Below are positions 24,353 to 33,235 of a stretch of DNA of 43,412 bases, piece by piece. The position numbers and the translations under genes were made by a program. The notes beneath the pieces are model-generated. The model was not told where the DNA came from. It ran no database searches and saw only the letters and a list, made by a program, of their open reading frames with translations. The DNA lies in the NCBI GenBank assembly GCA_031553685.1, contig JAVBLE010000033.1, positions 1 to 43,412 of the forward strand, given 5' to 3'. This DNA comes from Paludibacteraceae bacterium (GTDB lineage Bacteria > Bacteroidota > Bacteroidia > Bacteroidales > Paludibacteraceae). How positions within the stretch are numbered: the stretch's first letter is position 1; each line of letters starts with the position of its first letter.

Positions 24353-25048
24353 CTACAACTCCCCAACATCCGCAAAACTATAATAATCATTCCGCCCGAC
24401 AATGATATGGTCAACCAAATTTATTTCGAGCGCCTGAAAGGCTTTTTGTAGTTTCTGTGTCAGTTGTTTGTCTTGCGGGCTGGGCTTCGTGCTTCCCGAA
24501 GGATGGTTGTGGCAAATGGCTACCAAAACAGCCATTTTATCCAATGCCGCTTTCAAAGCCATGCGAGTGTCAACACCGGTGCCATTTATCCCGCCCGAAC
24601 TCAGTTTTACCTGTCCCAATACTTTATTGGCATTATTAAGCAAAAGCAGCCAAAACTCCTCGTGTGGCAAATCGGACAGCAAGGGGTGAAACAACTCGAA
24701 AATATCACGGCTGGTGATTATTTGTTCGCGCTCGAGCGATTCGGCATGTTTGCGCCGCCTACCGAGTTCCAACGCTGCTACAATGGTAATGGCTTTTGCC
24801 TCGCCTACGCCTTTGAAATTGGCGATCAACTCTTCGATAGAAAAACGCCCCAACTCGTCCAGATTATCGTGTGCCGAACGGAGTATGCGCCGCGAAAGTT
24901 CCACCGCCGTTTCGTCCCTGTTGCCCGAACCGATCAGGATTGCCAGCAGTTCGGCGTCGGTCAGGCTGGAAATGCCGCGTTGCATTAGCTTTTCGCGCGG
25001 ACGGTCTTCTTCTGCCCATTGGGTGATGGTTAGGTGTTTTTCTTGCAT
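24353..25048 (-). CDS. radC: RadC-like JAB/MPN domain protein
   Basis: N-terminal helix-hairpin-helix region and JAMM motif HNHPSGSTKPSPQD. Confidence 0.9.
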   Translation of the reverse strand: MQEKHLTITQWAEEDRPREKLMQRGISSLTDAELLAILIGSGNRDETAVELSRRILRSAHDNLDELGRFSIEELIANFKGVGEAKAITIVAALELGRRRKHAESLEREQIITSRDIFELFHPLLSDLPHEEFWLLLLNNANKVLGQVKLSSGGINGTGVDTRMALKAALDKMAVLVAICHNHPSGSTKPSPQDKQLTQKLQKAFQALEINLVDHIIVGRNDYYSFADVGEL

Positions 25049-25162
25049 GTAGTTTTTTGTAGGTTCAAGGTTAAAATATTTTGTCGATTCAAAAACTTGT
25101 CGTACATTTGTGGTATAAAATAAAAGCGGCTAAATGACTATTTCGGACACGGCGAGGGTTGT

Positions 25163-25627
25163 TTAGCCGTTTTCTATTGCAGTAATACAATATTGTATCT
25201 TTTGTCCGCTACCACGCAGCTCGCCTACGGTCAATTTTATCTTCCCAAATCCGATTTTTTCATACTCCATCACAAATATTTTTGAGAATCGCGATTGGTT
25301 TTTCACATTTGGCTTCGGTTCTTCGGCAATGAACTCTCCTTTATTATCTTTGGGAACAAGTGCATTTTCTATCACTTCGGACAAAAATGTAACTGCTATA
25401 GTTGATTGATAATTCAAAGATGCATGCCCTGCTGTTTCTTCTACCGACAGAAAACGCACATAGATAAGTGAATCTAAAGATTTATTGTAAAGATGTTTTT
25501 CTGGATTTGCCTCAATCCATTTTCCGTAAAAGTCAATGATAAATTGTTTTCGTTGTTTTTTGTCTTCCTTTGTAATTCCTGTAGCAATACCGGTTGCATC
25601 CAATTTCATAGTTTTTGATTTGTTCAT
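25163..25627 (-). CDS. Hypothetical protein (154 aa), possibly the last gene of the island operon
   Basis: ORF only; no motif recognised. A terminator-like hairpin (CGGCTAAA...TTTAGCCG) lies downstream at about 25100-25160. Confidence 0.45.
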   Translation of the reverse strand: MNKSKTMKLDATGIATGITKEDKKQRKQFIIDFYGKWIEANPEKHLYNKSLDSLIYVRFLSVEETAGHASLNYQSTIAVTFLSEVIENALVPKDNKGEFIAEEPKPNVKNQSRFSKIFVMEYEKIGFGKIKLTVGELRGSGQKIQYCITAIENG

Positions 25628-25743
25628 TTTCCACTCACAAAGTTACTGTTTCCATCAAAAAAACAAAATGAAGCAAATCTTAAAGTTTGGTTGGTTTTAA
25701 ATCATTTTTTTATTTACTACTGTGTCTAAATCTTAATTCAATA

Positions 25744-27417
25744 TTATAACAACTCTATTATTTTCTTAATAGCATCAAATAGCTTTACAACTCCATCCTT
25801 TATGTAAATATCATGATTAAGATACTGTCCATTATTTTTCTCATCCAAGATCCTTTTATCTGTATGAACAAAACCATTTCGTTTCCGGATTAATCGATAT
25901 ACTTCTTGTACAAATTTACCATCAGTCTGATTTAATTCTTGAAAATACAAACCTGCAAATTTTTGCCATTCGGGAGGTCTATCATTTGTGATTTTGGTAT
26001 TAGTATTTATATATTTTTCTTCATTCCATTCCCAATCAAGCAATAAATCCTTGTTGCATATTTCCCATGTTTTGTCTTGTGAATTGTATTGGATTAAATG
26101 TTTATTCACAAGTTCAATAACCATACAAAGTGTAATGTAAGAATAGGCAAACTGTGTCTTAGTTTTTGTAACTAAAATCATATCCCAAAATAATTGAAGT
26201 TGAGTTTTTAATTCTGATTTAAAATTAAAGGGATAGGTAAAACAATCAATTCGCTTTATTATTTCTTGGTAAGAAATATATAAAGTTTTAAGAAAGTTTC
26301 TCTCAAAGCAGTTTTTTACATCTTCTTTGAAGCGTAAATAATTTTGTTCTGAGAACTCATTAGAAAATCCAAATTCTGGTGACTCTTTCATGTAATAGCC
26401 ATCTGCACCAGCATCTAATAGAGCTTTCAAATTCCAAACCTTATTGGAGGCGGTGAAGATTATTGCTTGATAACCTTGATTAAGGGATTTGATTTTTTGT
26501 AAAACTTTCATTCCCGAGAAATCCTCTGGTTTCAATGTTTTATCTTCTTCTATTCCATTCAGGCGCAAATCTATCAAGTACAAATCAAAAGGTGTATTTT
26601 CAATCAAATTTTTACTTTCAACAGAAAGGTTATTATAATCGTTTACTTTTTCTTTGATAACAACAAAATCTTCAGTTGCTGAGGTTTTAAATACTTTTCG
26701 TAAAACTATTTCCCAGCCTTTATCAGCCTCATCATCAATTAATAAAACCTTTTTATTTGTGGCATTAATTTTATTTGGGTTTCCTACAGGGATTTTATCA
26801 ATAATTTTCAATAACGGAGGATTATGTTTTGATCTATCATAATTTAGTGCTGATATGTATTTAAAATATAACTTTGTTTTATCTTTTTCAAAGTTATTAT
26901 TTCCAAATAATGCGTTAGCATTGGCAGCCTTGTCCATACTATGTGCACCCCAAACATTTGCTAAAGAATGTCTTCCAGTAACTTCATCAGGTAGAATTTT
27001 TATAATATTGAGAAAGCCCATTTTATATTCATCAATAAGAATACCGTTATTCGCGGATATTTCAATTCCCATTTTATCAAAATCAGAGAAACCAATACCT
27101 TTTGTTGCAAGAATTTGACTCCAAATCTTTGTATCAATCATTATTGATTTTAATGAAGATATGCTTGCAAATAATATTGGCAACAAAGCTTTTTCTTTTA
27201 AATATTCGATAGAAAGCCTTATGTGTAACCCAATTTTTAAAGACAGAATTGAATCATTAGGAATCTCAATGATCAATTTATCTATTTCATTTTTGTTAAA
27301 AATCGAAATTAACCAATTATGAATTTCATAATCATTTGTCAAGTTTGGAATTTCAATAAAATTGAATCCAGATTCCTTTGCAGTATTACTATTACCAAGT
27401 ATAAATATTTTCTCCAT
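25744..27417 (-). CDS. Response-regulator receiver (REC) domain protein with C-terminal HEPN-like (RNxxxH) domain
   Basis: The REC signature KKVLLIDDEAD...DLYLIDLRLNG...AIIFTASNKVWNLKALLDAGADGYYMK falls at about aa 213-330. The C-terminus has ...VYRLIRKRNGFVHTDKRILDE, matching the Rx4-6H motif (here R-N-xxx-H). The N-terminal roughly 210 aa are unassigned. The start overlaps the upstream gene by 26 nt. Confidence 0.6.
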   Translation of the reverse strand: MEKIFILGNSNTAKESGFNFIEIPNLTNDYEIHNWLISIFNKNEIDKLIIEIPNDSILSLKIGLHIRLSIEYLKEKALLPILFASISSLKSIMIDTKIWSQILATKGIGFSDFDKMGIEISANNGILIDEYKMGFLNIIKILPDEVTGRHSLANVWGAHSMDKAANANALFGNNNFEKDKTKLYFKYISALNYDRSKHNPPLLKIIDKIPVGNPNKINATNKKVLLIDDEADKGWEIVLRKVFKTSATEDFVVIKEKVNDYNNLSVESKNLIENTPFDLYLIDLRLNGIEEDKTLKPEDFSGMKVLQKIKSLNQGYQAIIFTASNKVWNLKALLDAGADGYYMKESPEFGFSNEFSEQNYLRFKEDVKNCFERNFLKTLYISYQEIIKRIDCFTYPFNFKSELKTQLQLFWDMILVTKTKTQFAYSYITLCMVIELVNKHLIQYNSQDKTWEICNKDLLLDWEWNEEKYINTNTKITNDRPPEWQKFAGLYFQELNQTDGKFVQEVYRLIRKRNGFVHTDKRILDEKNNGQYLNHDIYIKDGVVKLFDAIKKIIELL

Positions 27418-28102
27418 ACTGTAAATAACTTTCTATTATAGATTGTATTTTCTCTCTAAATTCACTTATTGTTACCGGATTTTTCTCTAAATCATCTAAA
27501 AAAACTTCGTAACTAATATTTGAAAACGATAATTTGATAAATTCCTGAAATTGCTTTGGCAAATTCTTCAAATCCAATTTATCGGTGTTCTTCTGTGAGA
27601 TAATAGCTTCCAACACAATATTTCCAATATTGCGCACTTCTTTTGCTTGAAAATTCTTTCCCCAAGCTAAAATTTGTAACTCAATTTCTCCTGTATTTTT
27701 ATAGTATTCTACAAAAACTTTCAGATGTTCATAGAAAAGGTTCTTTTTTATTCCTCGGATAAAATGTGGATTTTCTACTTCTGGTTCTCCCATATTGTTA
27801 CTAAACAATACCAAAGGAATTTTATCTCCAAAATCTGCAATTTCTTCCTTAATCTTTCTAACATTGCTTGTAGAACCAGATAAAAATCCTTTTTCCACAT
27901 CCCAATCTTCGGTCGTTATGTGCAAAAGAATACATTTCGCATTTTGAAGAAATTTCAAATGTAAAATATCATTTGCCTTTTCACGCTTTTCAATTCGTTC
28001 CACAGAAGTAAGATATCCATTAAAAGTACCATCTTCTATAAAGTTAATATTGTATTGATTCTGACGCTGGCTATTTTGATTATCGTCAATTAAGTAAATC
28101 AT
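27392..28102 (-). CDS. Pseudo-receiver (REC-like) domain protein plus helical C-terminal domain (hypothetical)
   Basis: MIYLIDDNQ..., ...CILLHITTEDWD..., IPLVLFSNN..., IRGIKK resembles the REC beta1/beta3/beta4/beta5 pattern with a degenerate acceptor site. Its ATG overlaps the stop of the upstream gene (TAATG). Confidence 0.45.
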   Translation of the reverse strand: MIYLIDDNQNSQRQNQYNINFIEDGTFNGYLTSVERIEKREKANDILHLKFLQNAKCILLHITTEDWDVEKGFLSGSTSNVRKIKEEIADFGDKIPLVLFSNNMGEPEVENPHFIRGIKKNLFYEHLKVFVEYYKNTGEIELQILAWGKNFQAKEVRNIGNIVLEAIISQKNTDKLDLKNLPKQFQEFIKLSFSNISYEVFLDDLEKNPVTISEFREKIQSIIESYLQYGENIYTW

Positions 28103-29790
28103 TATTGATAATAAAATGTAAGTATATGTGTAAAGCCAATTACTTCCGAAGCCTTTATTTCTTCTTGTTCTATAGTTCCTTTTTCGCGAAGAATATTAAT
28201 TTTTATAGGCTTGTCATCAATTTTAGTAATAACTGACCAATGGCAATATCCTTGAAGGTGTTCTGCTATTTTACCCATATTGCCCTTGTCTAATGATAGC
28301 CATTCTTTTATTAAAATATCCGCATCTTTGGTTGGATAAGAATTGTGGTGTGTAATAATAACTTGACTTACAAAAAAGTCGTCATCTGTAGTGCGTTTGT
28401 ATTCAACAGATATTTGCCTTTTGTCAGGTGTATTACTACGCTTTTGTATTTCTTCAAAAATTGTTTCCAAAGCCGCTTTAAATTCACCTACATGTGTGTA
28501 GAAATCGGCTTTTGACAATTTCATTGTTTTTATATCAAAAGTGTTTTCAGAAAACACTTTATTGATAAGTGTTTCTAAATTAGGTGATTCAATACGGGTA
28601 GTTCGTCTAAAATCTTTTATGACTTCTGCAAATTGAGTATGTCTTATTGGATGCAATTTATTGCTTTTCGTTTCTTTCCATTCCGCAGATGACCATGCAT
28701 TTGTAATTTCTTTGGCATTGTATTGATTGTTAAAAATAGTCAATTTTGATTTTTGCTCAAATGCAAATTGAGTCAATAAGTCTTTTAAAGTTTTGGGTAT
28801 TTCTAGTTGATCAAAACTTTCGGTACAAACTTTTCTTGCTTGTGCTAAAAATGAATCCATATCAAAATCACCGTTTTCGTCAAAATCGTGTGTTAGGTAT
28901 TTCAATCCATCACGCTGATTGAATAGAGACATAAATTGAGCTACATCTTTAGGATTGCCTTTTTCTCCACGCATAATGGCTTTCTTGAATTGTAGCTCTT
29001 CAATTTCTTTCTCAAGATTGGCTATATCCTGCTTAAATTCGTCTATCTGTGTTTCTAATTTCAATATTTGTTCATCTATCTGTTCATATTTACTTTCATC
29101 TTGTAGCATTTCTTCTTTGATTGGAAGAATTCTGCTAAACCTGCTCCATTCACGAGCATTCTTATAGGCTCCTAAACTTGATTCTGGAACATACAAAGGA
29201 AAGTTATAAAAATGATATGATTTGTCATTTTTACGAAATGTTTCAGAAGATATAATTTGTGGAGTACTTCTTCTATTAATAATATATGCAAGATTCGCAT
29301 TGTTATAAAACAAGTTTTTACCAAGTGATTCTACGCTTTCAGGTATTGTAATAGTTGTCAGAGAAACACAACCCCAAAAAGCACCTTCGCCAATTTTTAT
29401 AATACTATTAGGCATTTCAACAGTTTTTAATCCAGAACACTTATTGAAGGCATATTCTCCAATAGTTACTACACTATTGGGAATTTCAATGGATTCCAAT
29501 CCCGAACAATTCATAAAAGCACCATACTCAATATTATTAACAGTATTAGAGATAGATACAGATGTTACCCCCATACAATCTAAAAATGCTAATTGCCCAA
29601 TATTTAAAACTCCTTGATTTACTATTATTTTTGTAATATTCTTGCCATACCAAGGCACCTTACTACTATTGAAAAAATCTCTCATTTTCCCTTCTCCACT
29701 AATAGTAAGTGTAGTGCCATTGAGTGAAGCAATTACATCACTTGCATTTTCAGTTCCACAATCCCAAGTTTGTATATTTGTATTTTTCAT
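28102..29790 (-). CDS. BspA-type leucine-rich-repeat (LRR_5) protein with central coiled coil and an unassigned roughly 300-aa C-terminal domain
   Basis: ATG at 29790 (MKNTNIQTW). Repeats IEIPNSVVTIGEYAFNKCSGLKTVEMPNSIIKIGEGAFWGCVSL. Coiled coil YEQIDEQILKLETQIDEFKQDIANLEKEIEELQ. The TTG-started extension to 29835 is unlikely. Confidence 0.65.
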   Translation of the reverse strand: MKNTNIQTWDCGTENASDVIASLNGTTLTISGEGKMRDFFNSSKVPWYGKNITKIIVNQGVLNIGQLAFLDCMGVTSVSISNTVNNIEYGAFMNCSGLESIEIPNSVVTIGEYAFNKCSGLKTVEMPNSIIKIGEGAFWGCVSLTTITIPESVESLGKNLFYNNANLAYIINRRSTPQIISSETFRKNDKSYHFYNFPLYVPESSLGAYKNAREWSRFSRILPIKEEMLQDESKYEQIDEQILKLETQIDEFKQDIANLEKEIEELQFKKAIMRGEKGNPKDVAQFMSLFNQRDGLKYLTHDFDENGDFDMDSFLAQARKVCTESFDQLEIPKTLKDLLTQFAFEQKSKLTIFNNQYNAKEITNAWSSAEWKETKSNKLHPIRHTQFAEVIKDFRRTTRIESPNLETLINKVFSENTFDIKTMKLSKADFYTHVGEFKAALETIFEEIQKRSNTPDKRQISVEYKRTTDDDFFVSQVIITHHNSYPTKDADILIKEWLSLDKGNMGKIAEHLQGYCHWSVITKIDDKPIKINILREKGTIEQEEIKASEVIGFTHILTFYYQ

Positions 29791-29816
29791 AAATAAATTG
29801 GTTTTAAAAGTTTTTA

Positions 29817-29867
29817 TTTTTGTTTCACACTGCAAAACTACAAGTTATCTGTGCATTCTTTCTGCAC
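29817..29867. promoter_or_regulatory. 51-bp direct repeat copy 1 (TTTTTGTTTCACACTGCAAAACTACAAGTTATCTGTGCATTCTTTCTGCAC) in the promoter region of the LRR/REC/HEPN operon
   Basis: 47 of 51 nt identical to 30161-30211. It lies 27-77 nt upstream of the operon ATG. Confidence 0.6.
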
Positions 29868-29892
29868 TGTTATGATTTTATGTAGCGAATCT

Positions 29893-30039
29893 TTAATTTT
29901 CATCGTTATCTTCGTCATAATCATCGTCATCATAATCCCGCTCATTCAAGGAATCCAAATATTTGTCTTCCAAATAATCCATGTAGTCTTGTGGATCAGA
30001 AAATCCATCATCCATCATTAAGTCTGAAAATCCGCTCAT
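29893..30039 (-). CDS. 48-aa highly acidic peptide (MSGFSDLMMDDGFSDPQDYMDYLEDKYLDSLNERDYDDDDYDEDNDEN)
   Basis: Translated by hand from the minus strand. It is below the 60-aa cutoff of the ORF track. It sits between the two 51-bp direct repeats, with a nested hairpin (30060-30135) upstream. Confidence 0.35.
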   Translation of the reverse strand: MSGFSDLMMDDGFSDPQDYMDYLEDKYLDSLNERDYDDDDYDEDNDEN

Positions 30040-30160
30040 AGTGTTTGTTTTTAGAGGTTAAATTAAGCCAACCGGAAGGATTAAAATCAAATCCGCTATG
30101 GGAAAGATTTGATTTTACGCGATTGGCTTAATTAAATGTTTTTATAATTCTTGTTACTTG

Positions 30161-30211
30161 TTTTTGTTTGACACTGCAAAACTACAAACTATCTGTGCAC
30201 TCTTTCTGCAC
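30161..30211. promoter_or_regulatory. 51-bp direct repeat copy 2, 53-103 nt upstream of the WYL regulator gene
   Basis: TTTTTGTTTGACACTGCAAAACTACAAACTATCTGTGCACTCTTTCTGCAC. Confidence 0.6.
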
Positions 30212-30263
30212 AAATGTAAGAAATATTTTGTTCCTTTGTATTGGACTGAAAAATAAATAAATT

Positions 30264-31283
30264 ATGGCAACCAATAAAAATGCACAAGCTCGTTACAGGA
30301 TACTTGATAATTGTTTTCGTAATAATGGGCGAAGATATTTTATCGAAGACTTAATTTCGGAATGTAATAAAAAATTGGCGGAAATTGACCCCGATTCTAA
30401 AGGTATCAGTCGCCGACAGATTTTTGATGACATTGCGTTTATGGAAAGTTCCGAAGGTTGGGAAATTGATTTATTAAGAGAAAAAGATGGGAAAAGGGTG
30501 TATTATTGTTATGCTGATACTTCTTTTTCTATCAACAATATGCCATTGACAGAATCGGATATTAACCGATTACAAACCGCACTGCAAACCTTTTCACAAT
30601 TCAAAGGGATGCCTCAATTTGAATGGATGTATGAGCTTTTGCCCAAACTGAAACGGGGAAGTTCTGATGTGTATTCTCCCGAGATTATGGAATTTGAGAC
30701 AAATCAGGATCTAAAAGGTATTGAACATATCGGTACGCTTTATGATGCCATCCTTTATAAAAAAACATTGAGAGTTGATTATCTGCAATCATTTAAAGAT
30801 AAATTGCAACTAATCATTCATCCATACTATTTGAAACAATACAATACCCGGTGGTTTTTGTTCGGTTGTAATTCTGAAAATGGGAAATATGATTGGAATC
30901 TTCCATTGGACAGAATCATTGATATAAAAGAAATTCATAAACCATATATTCCTAATACGGTAATTGATTGGAATGAATATTTTGATGATATAATAGGAGT
31001 AACAAAACCGGAAAGTTCCGGAATAGAAGAAATCACACTCCATTTTTATGGAAAAACAGGACACTATATTGAGTCAAAGCCAATTCATCCTTACCAAAGG
31101 CACAAATGGTTAAGCTCAGAAATACTTGAGGTTAACTTGGAGTTAATTATTAATTACGAACTAGAACGGCTTATTCTATCGTATGCCGATAGTGTAAAAG
31201 TGATTCAACCTCAGTCTTTAGTTGAACAGATAAAAGAACGCTTATCTAAAGGTGTTTATCAATATGATTCACCTATCTATTAA
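30264..31283 (+). CDS. wHTH-WYL-WCX transcriptional regulator (BrxR/CapW/PafBC-like)
   Basis: WYL domain signature IIHPYYLKQYNTRWFLFGCNSENGKYDWNLPLDRIIDI, preceded by an N-terminal HTH region (YRILDNCFRNNGRRYFIEDLI). It is divergent from the LRR/REC/HEPN operon. Confidence 0.78.
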   Translation: MATNKNAQARYRILDNCFRNNGRRYFIEDLISECNKKLAEIDPDSKGISRRQIFDDIAFMESSEGWEIDLLREKDGKRVYYCYADTSFSINNMPLTESDINRLQTALQTFSQFKGMPQFEWMYELLPKLKRGSSDVYSPEIMEFETNQDLKGIEHIGTLYDAILYKKTLRVDYLQSFKDKLQLIIHPYYLKQYNTRWFLFGCNSENGKYDWNLPLDRIIDIKEIHKPYIPNTVIDWNEYFDDIIGVTKPESSGIEEITLHFYGKTGHYIESKPIHPYQRHKWLSSEILEVNLELIINYELERLILSYADSVKVIQPQSLVEQIKERLSKGVYQYDSPIY

Positions 31284-31302
31284 ATTAGCATTCCATAGTT
31301 GC

Positions 31303-31329
31303 AGTTATTCGGATTTTCCGAACAACTGA
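31303..31329 (+). terminator. Hairpin CAGTTATTCGGATTTTCCGAACAACTG 20 nt after the WYL gene stop
   Basis: Same TTCGGAwwTTCCGAA palindrome type as the tandem array at 6934-7222. Confidence 0.45.
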
Positions 31330-31501
31330 CAGTTCATTCAATTTTCTTCAAAAAATTATTTTGACAAATACTTACCATGCTCTTATTGTTTTGTGCTTTT
31401 TTAGGTATACATGTCAAAAAAGGTTGCTAAAACTAATCTTTAACGCCATTGCAAAAGCAGTTTCAGTTTTATAAATTGAAACCGTTTTCAATTTTATTAA
31501 T

Positions 31502-32148
31502 ATGAATAAAAAAAATGCTGGGTTTGTGGTAGTTCCTCTGTCATCAAATGGGGAACTCGTTGTGGAAAACAACGGTTTAAATGTAAAGAATGCGATGCTC
31601 TGACAACATGGACAAACAAAGGAGTTTCATCATCTAATCGTTTTATATGGTTTCGCCGTTGGATTGTAGGGAAACAAACTTTTCCCGAATTAGTTTCTCA
31701 AAGCGGTTATAGAGTACAGATGTGTCAATTCCATCAAATAAAGATTATTCAGCGTTATTTAACAAAGAAGCCTGATTTACAGGCAGGCAAAGAGTTGTTA
31801 GAACTTGTCAAGTTATTGACTCAAACGGATAAAGAAAGTTTTCTTCTCAGCTTTGCTTGCTGGCATGAGAAATGGGATGAATTTTTGCGAGAACGCTCAA
31901 AGGACAGGCTAACTGGAAAGACTCATTATATTCATAAAAGATTGCGAAGTGCCTATTTGAGTTTAAAACATAATATGCCTTATTTGTGGACTTGGTCTGA
32001 TTATATTCAGATAGGAATACCCAATACCAATAATGTTTTGGAAGGGAAGTTTGCCGATTTAAAAACCAAATTGAGGAATCATAACGGACTATCCAAAAGA
32101 ACTCGTGAGGTCTTTATTGATCACTACTTTAAACAAACATTCCGTTAA
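31502..32148 (+). mobile_element. IS1595/IS1016-like transposase gene with a frameshift in an A8 run (probable pseudogene or slippage site)
   Basis: ATG at 31502 (MNKK) is in frame 2. Immediately after the A8 run (31508-31515), frame 1 encodes the zinc ribbon CWVCGSSSVIKWGTRCGKQRFKCKECD, continuing into the 31720..32148 ORF (...NVLEGKFADLKTKLRNHNGLSKRTREVF...). One extra A would fuse the frames. Confidence 0.6.
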
Positions 32149-32186
32149 ACTCTCGGTGGAATATTCCACCGAGAGTTTAACGGAAT
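32139..32186. repeat. 48-bp perfect palindrome (ATTCCGTTAAACTCTCGGTGGAAT | ATTCCACCGAGAGTTTAACGGAAT) spanning the transposase stop codon, followed by two 22-bp direct repeats (32188-32209, 32229-32250)
   Basis: Read directly. Confidence 0.8.
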
Positions 32187-32294
32187 CTCATCCTCACTTT
32201 TGAACATTAGTGTAAATCAGGTGCGTTTTCATCCTCACTTTTGAACATTAAACCGCCTTTTTACATTACTTTTGAAGAATATTGAAAACTGGAA

Positions 32295-32434
32295 TTTTAC
32301 ACAGAGGAAAATGTATTTTGTTTAAAAATATTCAATTGATAATAAGGCTGTTAGTTCGAACATTCGCTTAGAGAAAAATGCAGAGTTTCCCAGAAGCTGA
32401 AAAATCGAAGATTTTTCTATTCTCTGTGTAAAAT
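32295..32434. mobile_element. MITE-like element with perfect 12-bp terminal inverted repeats TTTTACACAGAG, related to 6551-6819
   Basis: Shares the core hairpin GAAAAATCGAAGATTTTTC and the AGTTCGA motif with the 6.5-kb copy. Confidence 0.5.
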
Positions 32435-32455
32435 AAATATAAACAAACTTTACCA

Positions 32456-33235
32456 ATGAAAATAAAAACACACATATTGCTTGCTTTTCTATTGGCTATT
32501 TCACAAACTATTTTTCCGGTCGAAATCGAAAAGGCGGAATTAGACCAAATCGGCGAAAAAATTTTTAAAAACGAGTGTGCCGGCAATAAAGAATACTTGG
32601 TTTTTTGGAATAAAAATGAAAACTTTCCATCGCTCGGTATCGGGCATTTCATCTGGTATCGGGAGGGACAAACCGAAATTTTTGACGAAAGTTTTCCGAA
32701 ACTGATTGAGTTTTATAAGTCGAAAAATGTCAAACTGCCTTGTTTCTTGAAAAAAAACAAAACAGCTCCGTGGGCTTCGCGCGAAGATTTTATGCACGAC
32801 AAGGAAGCAGGAAAACTCAATGAGTTGCGCGATTTCTTATACAATACAAAGGACACGCAAATACTTTTTATTTACCAACGATTGGAAGCATCGTTGGATA
32901 AAATGCTGCAACAATCAAACAATAAAGAAAATGTGCGGGCACAGTTTTACCGAGTGTCGCAATCGCCAAACGGCATGTATGCTTTGATCGATTATGTCAA
33001 CTTCAAGGGCGAAGGCATCAGTGAAAAGGAACGGTATAATGGGGCAGGGTGGGGGCTGCTTCAAATATTGGAATATATGCAGGGCACAGAAACAGGCAAA
33101 GCGGCAACCAACGAATTTGCTGCCGGTGCAAAGTTTGTTCTCGAACGCCGTGTGCGCAATTCCGACCCAAAAAAGAACGAACAACAATTTCTTGCCGGAT
33201 GGCTCAAAAGGGTAGATACCTATAAGCTACCTTGA
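32456..33235 (+). CDS. Secreted hypothetical protein
   Basis: Signal peptide MKIKTHILLAFLLAISQTIFP; no motif recognised. Confidence 0.55.
   Translation: MKIKTHILLAFLLAISQTIFPVEIEKAELDQIGEKIFKNECAGNKEYLVFWNKNENFPSLGIGHFIWYREGQTEIFDESFPKLIEFYKSKNVKLPCFLKKNKTAPWASREDFMHDKEAGKLNELRDFLYNTKDTQILFIYQRLEASLDKMLQQSNNKENVRAQFYRVSQSPNGMYALIDYVNFKGEGISEKERYNGAGWGLLQILEYMQGTETGKAATNEFAAGAKFVLERRVRNSDPKKNEQQFLAGWLKRVDTYKLP

What the first reader, a model, noticed from the sequence alone, without database searches (positions are those of the whole stretch)
25163..31283. Candidate undescribed WYL-regulated three-gene system: BspA-LRR/coiled-coil protein, pseudo-receiver, and REC-HEPN-like protein
Three minus-strand genes are translationally coupled: a TAATG stop/start overlap at 28102 and a 26-nt overlap at 27392-27417. 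Gene A (28102-29790) is a BspA-type LRR plus coiled-coil protein with a large unassigned C-terminal domain. Gene B (27392-28102) is a degenerate REC-like domain. Gene C (25744-27417) has an unknown N-terminal domain, a canonical REC, and a C-terminal domain carrying an RNxxxH motif of the HEPN RNase type. A possible fourth small gene is at 25163-25627. A wHTH-WYL regulator (30264-31283) is transcribed divergently; this is the class (BrxR/CapW) that controls BREX, CBASS and other defence islands. The locus is visibly more AT-rich than the flanking housekeeping genes. It is bracketed by radC and a decayed IS1595 copy, which suggests horizontal acquisition. No histidine kinase partner is present. 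I do not recognise this gene combination as a known defence system; the architecture (LRR sensor, REC switch, HEPN effector) is consistent with an abortive-infection-like RNase system.
Basis: partly seen in the sequence, partly recalled or inferred. Interest (0 to 1): 0.85.

Follow-up and report, generated by a model that had tools for sequence, protein, structure and literature searches.

The report
Kinase-gated HEPN RNase defence operon
This AT-rich island carries an intact copy of a rare Bacteroidota gene cassette that looks like an anti-phage system: an intracellular sensor kinase appears to switch on an RNA-cutting enzyme by phosphorylation. Its key domains are already listed in Pfam as conflict-associated, but I found no experimental test of it.

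The parts
30264..31283 (+). WYL-WCX transcriptional regulator (339 aa), divergent from the operon
   Evidence: Pfam WYL E 8e-8 and WCX E 1e-7. PADLOC WYL models E 4e-24 and 4e-15. A divergent orthologue lies upstream of the kinase in 17 of 24 related loci that have enough upstream sequence.
30158..30211 (-). Operator/promoter element, copy 2. The core is the inverted repeat GTGCA-N7-TGCAC at 30196-30211, followed by a Bacteroidota -7-like box TAGTTTTG. It lies between the WYL start and the small ORF.
   Evidence: 54-nt direct repeat, 91% identical to copy 1. The motif GTGCAGAAAGNNTGCA occurs twice in the window with 0 expected. It occurs once, next to the WYL gene, in each of L001-L007. The -7 box assignment is my inference from the published Bacteroides consensus TAnnTTTG.
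30058..30136 (-). Stable hairpin in the leader between operator copy 2 and the small ORF; function unknown
   Evidence: Inverted repeats I3 and I8. RNA fold -27.5 kcal/mol, z -5.35 against shuffles. No Rfam match. Absent from L001, where the intergenic gap is only about 60 nt.
29893..30039 (-). Small acidic ORF (48 aa; 20 Asp/Glu, 2 Lys/Arg), a possible accessory component of one LRR-type sub-branch
   Evidence: ORF. L001-L003 have a 54-aa gene at the same position sharing M[IM]DDGFxDxxDYMDYL (phmmer E 2e-4). It is absent from the closest LRR-type relative L037.
29814..29867 (-). Operator/promoter element, copy 1 (core 29852-29867; -7-like box about 29833-29840), immediately upstream of gene A
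   Evidence: Its position puts the TTG at 29835 inside the promoter, so ATG 29790 is the likely start of gene A (inference).
28102..29790 (-). Gene A, the sensor kinase (562 aa). Parts: cytoplasmic BspA-type LRR (residues 48-167, nt 29290-29649); coiled coil (about 216-278, nt 28957-29145); HisKin-conflict domain (279-560, nt 28111-28956) with invariant His301 (within nt 28876-28908).
   Evidence: Pfam LRR_5 E 7e-33 and PF22561 E 2.2e-55. H301 is 100% conserved in 65 diverse kinase domains. No signal peptide or TM segment. The LRR matches solved BspA-like LRR proteins. There is no sequence-level match to canonical kinases.
27392..28102 (-). Gene B (236 aa). Receiver-fold domain (residues 1-137, nt 27692-28102) with D6/D7, S101 and K120 kept but His61 at the phospho-acceptor position (within nt 27905-27934), followed by a helical C-terminal domain. 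No Pfam family.
25744..27417 (-). Gene C, the effector (557 aa). Parts: iREC (residues 4-109, nt 27091-27408); a conserved unassigned linker (about 110-215); canonical REC (216-362, nt 26332-26772; D228/D229, D283, T322, K344); HEPN domain (363-557, nt 25747-26331) with RNGFVH at nt 25864-25881.
31720..32148 (+). Truncated IS256-family (Zn-binding variant) transposase, C-terminal half only. It marks the right side of the AT-rich island.
   Evidence: NCBIfam NF048019 E 9.4e-61, profile positions 164-301 of 304. GC 0.35.

Best explanation
The locus is an intact, horizontally acquired copy of a rare, mainly Bacteroidota conflict (most likely anti-phage) system built on a private His-Asp phosphorelay. 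The invariant core is three translationally coupled genes: a divergent histidine kinase (Pfam HisKin-conflict), a roughly 240-aa receiver-fold protein (gene B), and an iREC-REC-HEPN protein. Proposed mechanism: the variable N-terminal module of the kinase detects an infection cue. In this window that module is a cytoplasmic BspA-type LRR; in most relatives it is a retron-type reverse transcriptase, and in one it is TPR. The kinase then autophosphorylates on the invariant His301 and transfers the phosphoryl group to Asp283 of the receiver in gene C. That releases or assembles the C-terminal HEPN RNase (Arg513/Asn514/His518), which cleaves RNA and arrests the infected cell. Gene B has the receiver pocket but His instead of the acceptor Asp, so it probably sets the threshold of the relay as a decoy, scaffold, phosphatase-like partner or His-phosphotransfer step. 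The divergent WYL-WCX protein represses the operon through the GTGCA-N7-TGCAC operator that overlaps the promoter, which is duplicated here. SHOWN: gene structure, domain families, conservation of order and coupling, sensor swapping, defence-island context, conserved operator, HEPN homology and motif, REC catalytic residues. INFERRED: kinase activity, direction of phosphotransfer, RNase activity, phage trigger, role of gene B, repression by WYL.
Confidence: 0.62

Rival explanations
1. The cassette is an addiction or stabilisation (toxin-antitoxin-like) module of a mobile element. The HEPN protein is a toxin held in check by gene B and/or by the phosphorylation state. Its main role is to keep the island or plasmid in the cell, with phage defence incidental or absent.
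Against: No MNT or other known HEPN antitoxin is present. A three-protein relay with exchangeable sensor modules (LRR, TPR, retron RT) is far more elaborate than a TA pair and is typical of sensing systems. A WYL repressor and BREX/TOTE neighbours point to immunity.
Confidence: 0.15
2. It is a physiological, non-conflict two-component system. An intracellular ligand sensed by the LRR controls an RNA-processing or RNA-binding output used for stress adaptation or regulation of host transcripts, and the HEPN domain acts as a specific regulator rather than a suicide effector.
For: REC-enzyme response regulators are common in ordinary signalling (established knowledge: CheB, RpfG, PorX). One relative lies among ordinary chromosomal genes (L033). 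In this window the neighbours are housekeeping genes: radC, an antiporter, an amino-acid permease, an M23 peptidase.
Against: The family is patchy and rare: 210 representatives among 1.84 billion proteins; 26 loci among 185,579 species genomes. It has atypical GC and sits in varied, often mobile or defence contexts. Retron RT, LRR and TPR sensors are exchanged on one kinase. Pfam curators recorded the kinase as occurring in conflict contexts. None of this is expected for a housekeeping regulator.
Confidence: 0.1
3. The 'kinase' domain is not a kinase. Gene A is a scaffold or other enzyme, and the receiver and receiver-like domains act as nucleotide- or ligand-responsive switches independent of phosphorylation, as has been proposed for some conflict-system REC domains. 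The system would still be defensive, but signal-gated rather than phosphorelay-gated.
For: No detectable sequence similarity to canonical kinases and no recognisable G1/G2 boxes. [quoted passage not shown] Two of the three receiver-like domains here (iREC and gene B) lack the acceptor Asp.
Against: The curated Pfam model labels the domain a histidine kinase at E 2e-55. A 100% invariant His followed by acidic residues lies in the N-terminal part of the domain. The REC in gene C keeps the complete phospho-acceptor pocket across the family, which is hard to explain without phosphorylation.
Confidence: 0.13

Closest known systems
Pfam PF22561 (HisKin-conflict) + PF22563 (iREC) conflict-system families. 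These are curated computational entries, apparently from the Aravind-lab deposits that also defined the TOTE families (Aravind, Iyer & Burroughs 2022, as cited in PMC12458937). From memory, Burroughs & Aravind 2020 (J Bacteriol 202:e00365-20) also predicted histidine-kinase/receiver-based threshold immune systems and a receiver-related sensor. Neither paper could be read here.
   Same: The kinase domain of gene A and the N-terminal domain of gene C match these models strongly. The genes are adjacent and coupled, as in every relative examined.
   Different: I could not check whether the LRR-fused form, gene B, the HEPN output or the WYL control were described. Gene B has no Pfam family at all. 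No experimental validation was found. The system is absent from PADLOC v2.
Retron systems with clade-8 RTs carrying variable C-terminal fusions: types I-C (Toprim), XI (protease) and XII (TIR) of Mestre et al. 2020, PMC7736814
   Same: In most sister loci the kinase is fused to, or preceded by, an RT whose best PADLOC matches are exactly these retron RT models (E about 1e-98, RT part only). Those loci also have a long non-coding gap upstream of the RT.
   Different: This window has no RT; an LRR takes its place. The retron classification has no kinase- or receiver-linked type. No msr/msd RNA was demonstrated (no Rfam hit).
Ambrosia defence system: XRE regulator, MTase, HATPase kinase AbrB, REC-wHTH AbrC and HNH nuclease (bioRxiv 10.1101/2025.09.30.679545)
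   Same: A kinase plus receiver pair embedded in a phage-defence operon. Mutating conserved residues in any predicted domain abolishes defence, and protection is lost when the predicted phosphorylation site (D60) is mutated.
   Different: In Ambrosia the REC drives a wHTH, a transcriptional output controlling an RM-like module. Here the REC is fused directly to the predicted RNase effector, the kinase domain is a different and highly divergent family, and there is an extra receiver-fold protein.
HEPN abortive-infection and toxin RNases: HEPN-MNT toxins, AbiA C-terminal HEPN, RnlA/LsoA, Csm6/Csx1, Cas13
   Different: The gating domain here is a phospho-receiver rather than CARF, MNT-mediated AMPylation or crRNA. 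The domain is too divergent to hit any Pfam HEPN model directly.
BrxR/CapW-type WYL regulators of defence islands (BrxR: Luyten et al. 2022, PMC9122589, from the reference list seen)
   Same: WYL + WCX architecture, divergent orientation next to the controlled operon, and an inverted-repeat operator overlapping the promoter region.
   Different: Orthology to BrxR or CapW was not tested. The N-terminal HTH gave no Pfam hit. The ligand and any derepression are unknown. The regulator is better conserved than the core genes it accompanies (for example L024: WYL E 1e-141 against gene B E 5e-15).
Response regulators with enzymatic outputs (CheB, RpfG, PorX REC-PglZ)
   Same: A REC domain directly fused to an enzyme domain that phosphorylation is expected to activate (established knowledge; PorX is mentioned in PMC12839542).
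   Different: A HEPN output and an additional inactive N-terminal receiver; the cognate kinase is cytoplasmic and non-canonical.

Membership tests
HisKin-conflict / iREC two-component conflict system (Pfam PF22561 + PF22563) | Protein with the HisKin-conflict domain | tested here: met
   Gene A residues 279-560, E 2.2e-55, 188.9 bits against a cut-off of 27, full-length model match 4-303 of 303.
HisKin-conflict / iREC two-component conflict system (Pfam PF22561 + PF22563) | Partner protein with an inactive receiver (iREC) followed by an active REC | tested here: met
   Gene C: iREC E 1.4e-15, 57.7 bits against a cut-off of 27. REC residues D228, D229, D283 and K344 are invariant and T322 is at 90% or more.
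HisKin-conflict / iREC two-component conflict system (Pfam PF22561 + PF22563) | Conserved operonic linkage of the kinase, the roughly 240-aa protein and the iREC-REC protein | tested here: met
   Same order in all complete related loci; coupled junctions in 28 of 29 (A/B) and 29 of 29 (B/C).
Histidine kinase (functional) | DHp helical hairpin with a phospho-acceptor His, plus a Bergerat-fold ATP-binding domain with N/G1/G2 boxes | tested here: inconclusive
   An invariant His301 sits in GLKyLTHDxD. No G1/G2 boxes are recognisable.
Histidine kinase (functional) | ATP-dependent autophosphorylation and transfer to the receiver Asp | not testable with these tools
   Needs biochemistry.
HEPN RNase superfamily | Rx4-6H catalytic motif, conserved across the family | tested here: met
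   RNGFVH at residues 513-518. R, N and H are invariant in alignments of 42 and 30 sequences. RNxxxH is present in 97 of 121 distinct family C-termini; most of the rest shown carry Rx5H (RNTxxxH) and a few another Rx4H motif.
HEPN RNase superfamily | Sequence-profile membership in a curated HEPN family | tested here: inconclusive
   The window domain itself has no Pfam HEPN hit at E<=1. Relatives hit HEPN_RiboL-PSP (P0111: 32.1 bits against a cut-off of 28.4; P0077: 27.2 bits). The window-type profile aligns to that subgroup at 97.9%, E 4e-13, with the motifs in register.
HEPN RNase superfamily | HEPN helical-bundle fold | tested here: inconclusive
Receiver (REC/CheY-like) domain, gene B | Flavodoxin-like (beta-alpha)5 fold with a phospho-acceptor Asp at the end of beta-3 | tested here: not met
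BrxR/CapW-type WYL defence regulators | HTH + WYL + WCX protein encoded divergently, with an operator at the controlled promoter | tested here: met
   WYL and WCX hits, PADLOC WYL models, and a conserved inverted-repeat operator next to the gene in seven loci and twice here. The HTH was not detected by Pfam, and orthology to BrxR or CapW was not tested.
Retron | Retron-type reverse transcriptase with an adjacent msr/msd non-coding RNA | tested here: not met
   There is no RT in the window locus. Retron-type RTs occur only in sister loci. No Rfam match in either locus.
Any system in PADLOC-DB v2.0.0 | Significant match of the core proteins to a defence-system model | tested here: not met
   Only the WYL protein matches. 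Genes A, B and C give nothing better than E 4e-4, to a REC-containing candidate, PDC-M60B.
HEPN-MNT toxin-antitoxin | Adjacent minimal nucleotidyltransferase antitoxin | tested here: not met
   No nucleotidyltransferase domain in A, B, C, D or the small ORF.

The most novel reading that the evidence does not exclude
This would be a new mode of innate immune signalling in bacteria: a cytoplasmic LRR pattern-recognition receptor fused to a non-canonical histidine kinase, which fires a private phosphorelay into a receiver-HEPN RNase. Gene B, a receiver-fold protein whose acceptor Asp is replaced by an invariant His, would act as a previously unknown kind of phosphotransfer or threshold element. 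The same relay would be re-used with a retron reverse transcriptase as the sensor in sister systems, linking retron 'guard' sensing to His-Asp signalling. The 48-aa acidic protein could be an added inhibitor or DNA mimic.
Probability: 0.25. Interest if true: 0.8.

Novelty: new variant of a known kind. Interest (0 to 1): 0.6.

Why it matters
If the mechanism holds, this family would show His-Asp phosphotransfer being used to arm an immune effector directly at the protein level. In the one validated kinase/REC defence system I found (Ambrosia), the authors hypothesise a transcriptional output instead. The family would also show that one signalling core can accept three very different sensors: LRR, TPR and a retron reverse transcriptase. 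The LRR form is the closest bacterial analogue in this family to an LRR receptor kinase, and would be the simplest member to reconstitute because it needs no non-coding RNA or msDNA. Gene B, a receiver fold with His in the acceptor position and no Pfam family, is a well-defined biochemical question. The conserved WYL operator gives a ready handle for induction experiments. The core domains were already flagged computationally, however, so the advance would be experimental and mechanistic rather than the discovery of a new gene set.

Tried and rejected
(1) Gene D (25163-25627) as a fourth component: rejected. No homologue in any related locus, and only weak hits to LPD3 and HEC-02B (E about 3e-3). 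(2) IS1595 identity of the flanking remnant: rejected; it is IS256-family. (3) C-terminal effector swapping in gene C, suggested by 75-80% query coverage in many hits: rejected. 121 of 123 distinct C-termini form one homologous cluster, so this is one fast-diverging HEPN domain. (4) Gene B as a paralogue of iREC: hhalign found no similarity (probability 0.6%). (5) UG/Abi reverse transcriptases (UG19, UG22) as the identity of the sister-locus RTs: rejected. The RTs match retron models at E about 1e-98, and the UG/Abi paper mentions no receiver or response regulator and kinase only in unrelated contexts. (7) Foldseek confirmation of HEPN: not significant. (8) Rfam families in the regulatory region or upstream of the sister-locus RT: none. 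A sub-threshold His_leader hit at 32076-32184 is probably chance. (9) The primary literature for the Pfam families: Burroughs & Aravind 2020 and Aravind, Iyer & Burroughs 2022 are not held, and no held paper contains 'HisKin-conflict', 'PF22561', 'PF22563' or 'iREC domain'. (10) Organism identity: all window proteins are singletons without names, and the window's genome was not among the GTDB representatives returned. Bacteroidota is inferred from the relatives and the promoter motif. (11) Surface adhesin role for the BspA-type LRR: rejected, since there is no signal peptide or TM segment.

Full report
OBSERVATION. Three minus-strand ORFs lie at 28102-29790 (A; an upstream TTG at 29835 is also open), 27392-28102 (B) and 25744-27417 (C). 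A divergent ORF lies at 30264-31283. The A/B junction reads CAATAATGATT, a TAATG stop/start overlap. The ATG of C lies 26 nt before the stop of B. GC is 0.314 across 25050-32450 against about 0.43 on both sides. radC is confirmed at 24353-25048 (RadC family, E 1.5e-61).

WHAT THE PROTEINS ARE. Gene A is not "LRR plus an unassigned domain". Residues 48-167 are BspA-type LRR (LRR_5, E 7e-33). Residues 279-560 match Pfam PF22561, "Histidine Kinase domain observed in conflict contexts", over the full model at E 2.2e-55. The N-terminus of gene C (residues 4-109) matches PF22563, "Inactive Receiver domain" (iREC), at E 1.4e-15, and is followed by a receiver domain (Response_reg, E 5e-6). Across 30 homologues that receiver keeps the complete phospho-acceptor pocket: D228, D229, D283 and K344 are invariant and T322 is conserved in at least 90%. 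The statement that no kinase partner is present is therefore wrong: the operon encodes its own kinase and receiver.

CONSERVATION AND VARIATION. I examined homologous loci from metagenomes and from one genome per GTDB species. The kinase, B and the iREC-REC-HEPN gene occur in that order in every complete case. In 29 non-redundant loci the A/B junction is -4..+3 nt in 28 and B/C overlap by 8-47 nt in all 29. Of 26 loci found among 185,579 species genomes, all but one 4-kb MAG contig are Bacteroidota. The variable part is the N-terminus of the kinase. It is fused to a reverse transcriptase in eight of ten long forms or preceded by a separate RT gene. It is TPR in L010 and LRR in this window, L001 and L037, and in about 28 protein clusters. 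The RTs are retron-type: their best PADLOC matches are retron RT models of types XI, XII, I-C and XIII at about 1e-98, covering only the RT part. These correspond to the clade-8 RTs with variable C-terminal fusions in Mestre et al. 2020, a classification that has no kinase- or receiver-linked type (PMC7736814). A fixed signalling core with exchangeable sensor modules is the pattern expected of an immune system.

CONTEXT. Relatives lie directly downstream of a BREX cluster (L036), next to integrases (L035, L037), and next to relaxase/MobC genes (L004). Others lie beside Peptidase_M78+DUF4411 and a Ymh-family gene (L001) or on a Chryseobacterium oryzae plasmid, where RefSeq calls the genes "hypothetical protein" and "response regulator". 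In four RT-type lineages the cassette is followed by the two TOTE genes, a PIF1-like helicase with TBP-TOTE and S1CSD-TOTE. TOTE is a predicted conflict system (Aravind, Iyer & Burroughs 2022, as cited in PMC12458937). One relative sits among ordinary genes (L033). In this window the island is bounded by radC and by the C-terminal half of an IS256-family transposase (NF048019, E 9e-61), not an IS1595. Gene D (25163-25627) has no homologue in any related locus and is probably unrelated cargo.

REGULATION. The WYL-WCX gene lies divergently upstream of the kinase in 17 of the 24 loci that have enough upstream sequence. It is better conserved than the core genes: in L024, WYL scores E 1e-141 against 5e-15 for gene B. 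Next to it lies a conserved element, TTGTGCAGAAAG(G/A)(C/G)TGCA, containing the inverted repeat GTGCA-N7-TGCAC. A TAnnTTTG box follows it, which resembles the Bacteroides -7 promoter element (my knowledge of that consensus). The element is present in L001-L007. In this window a 54-nt block containing it occurs twice, at 29814-29867 and 30158-30211, 91% identical. The core motif occurs nowhere else in the 43 kb, with 0 expected. Copy 1 lies just upstream of ATG 29790, which argues against the TTG 29835 start. Copy 2 precedes a stable hairpin (30058-30136, -27.5 kcal/mol, z -5.35) and a 48-aa ORF (29893-30039) with 20 acidic and 2 basic residues. L001-L003 encode a 54-aa protein at the same position sharing M[IM]DDGFxDxxDYMDYL. 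The closest LRR-type locus, L037, lacks it. I read it as an accessory gene of one sub-branch, of unknown function.

MECHANISM (INFERENCE). All proteins lack signal peptides and TM segments, so the LRR is an intracellular sensor. The most economical model runs as follows. The WYL protein represses the operon. On infection the sensor module activates the kinase, which autophosphorylates on His301; this residue is 100% conserved in 65 diverse domains, in GLKyLTHDxD. The phosphoryl group passes to Asp283 of gene C, and the phosphorylated receiver releases or dimerises the HEPN RNase, which arrests the cell. Gene B and the iREC domain, both receiver folds without an acceptor Asp, would tune the threshold. 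The weak point is the kinase.

COMPARISON WITH KNOWN SYSTEMS. The locus meets the sequence definitions of the two Pfam conflict families, and I file it there as an LRR-sensor variant. It is not a retron, because it has no RT. It is not a HEPN-MNT toxin-antitoxin pair, because it has no MNT. It matches no PADLOC v2 system. The nearest experimentally validated relative in logic is Ambrosia, whose HATPase kinase and REC-wHTH regulator are both essential for defence (10.1101/2025.09.30.679545). There the authors hypothesise that the output is transcriptional, and the kinase family is different. BREX-linked Schlafen RNases fused to a minimal histidine kinase (PMC12839542) are another loose parallel. 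DefensePredictor still lists HATPase and REC among domains "not validated as defensive" (PMC13092281).

VERDICT. The finding is real and intact, and the defence interpretation is reasonable. It is less novel than claimed, because the kinase and iREC families are already curated as conflict-associated. It is mechanistically richer than claimed: a complete private phosphorelay, a His-substituted receiver-fold protein, retron/LRR/TPR sensor exchange, and a duplicated WYL operator. I rate it a new variant of a known, computationally predicted but experimentally untested, kind. Interest is 0.6.

Noticed in passing
window 29893-30039 (-): A 48-aa, highly acidic ORF (20 D/E, 2 K/R) between the WYL gene and gene A. 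It shares M[IM]DDGFxDxxDYMDYL with a 54-aa gene at the same position in L001-L003, and it is absent from L037. It could be an inhibitor, a DNA mimic or an accessory subunit.
   Followed up: partly
window 29814-29867 and 30158-30211: A 54-nt operator/promoter block is duplicated (91% identity), giving the small ORF and gene A each their own copy of the putative WYL operator GTGCA-N7-TGCAC. Related loci have a single copy.
   Followed up: yes
window 30058-30136 (-): A long, stable hairpin (-27.5 kcal/mol, z -5.35) in the leader of the small acidic ORF. It has no Rfam match and is not present in L001. It could be an attenuator, a processing site or an insertion scar.
   Followed up: partly
window 25163-25627 (-): Gene D (154 aa) has only weak similarity to LPD3 (a polyvalent-protein domain of mobile elements, E 3e-3) and to PADLOC HEC-02B (E 3e-3), and no homologue in related loci. 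It is probably separate mobile-element cargo within the same AT-rich island.
   Followed up: partly
window 31720-32148 (+): The transposase remnant is the C-terminal half of an IS256-family 'Zn-binding variant' transposase (NF048019, E 9e-61), not IS1595. The N-terminal half is missing.
   Followed up: yes
window 32456-33235 (+): A 259-aa ORF with a hydrophobic, signal-like N-terminus, no Pfam or NCBIfam match, and intermediate GC (0.41). It lies between the IS remnant and an M23 peptidase gene.
   Followed up: no
L004 9703-13312; L035 11710-15463; L036 12309-15948; L039 8593-12181: In four RT-type lineages the cassette is immediately followed, on the same strand, by the TOTE pair (a PIF1-like helicase with TBP-TOTE, plus S1CSD-TOTE). 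In L039 the pair is identified only by position and size; RefSeq calls the genes 'AAA family ATPase' and 'hypothetical protein'. L038 shows WYL-RT-261 aa-TOTE without the kinase cassette. The retron-type RT may serve either module, or the two may form a composite system.
   Followed up: partly
L004 4483-4861: A gap of about 380 nt without ORFs between the WYL gene and the retron-type RT. This is a candidate msr/msd-like non-coding RNA; it has no Rfam match.
   Followed up: partly
L038 2614-5168: A decayed LRR-kinase locus. The kinase is intact, but only fragments of gene B (162 aa) and of the iREC region (44 aa) remain, abutting an inverted WYL-RT-TOTE cluster. This is evidence of recombination between these modules.
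   Followed up: partly
L031 and L032, 10001-12184: A 727-aa protein that fuses a gene-B-like N-terminus to a REC and a different 198-aa C-terminus, next to a conserved WYL gene and with no detectable HisKin-conflict kinase. The exhaustive search also found gene-B-like N-termini on proteins of about 520-810 aa.
   Followed up: no
L024, L025, L027, L028, L030 (WYL genes): The WYL regulator is far better conserved than the genes it accompanies (E 1e-130 to 1e-141 against 1e-6 to 1e-15 for gene B). This suggests the regulator and its operator travel as a conserved unit between diverging cassettes.
   Followed up: no
window 26772-27091 (gene C residues about 110-215): A strongly conserved segment between iREC and REC (GRHSLANxWGAxxMDKAANxNAL, LYFKY) with no domain assignment.
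   Followed up: no
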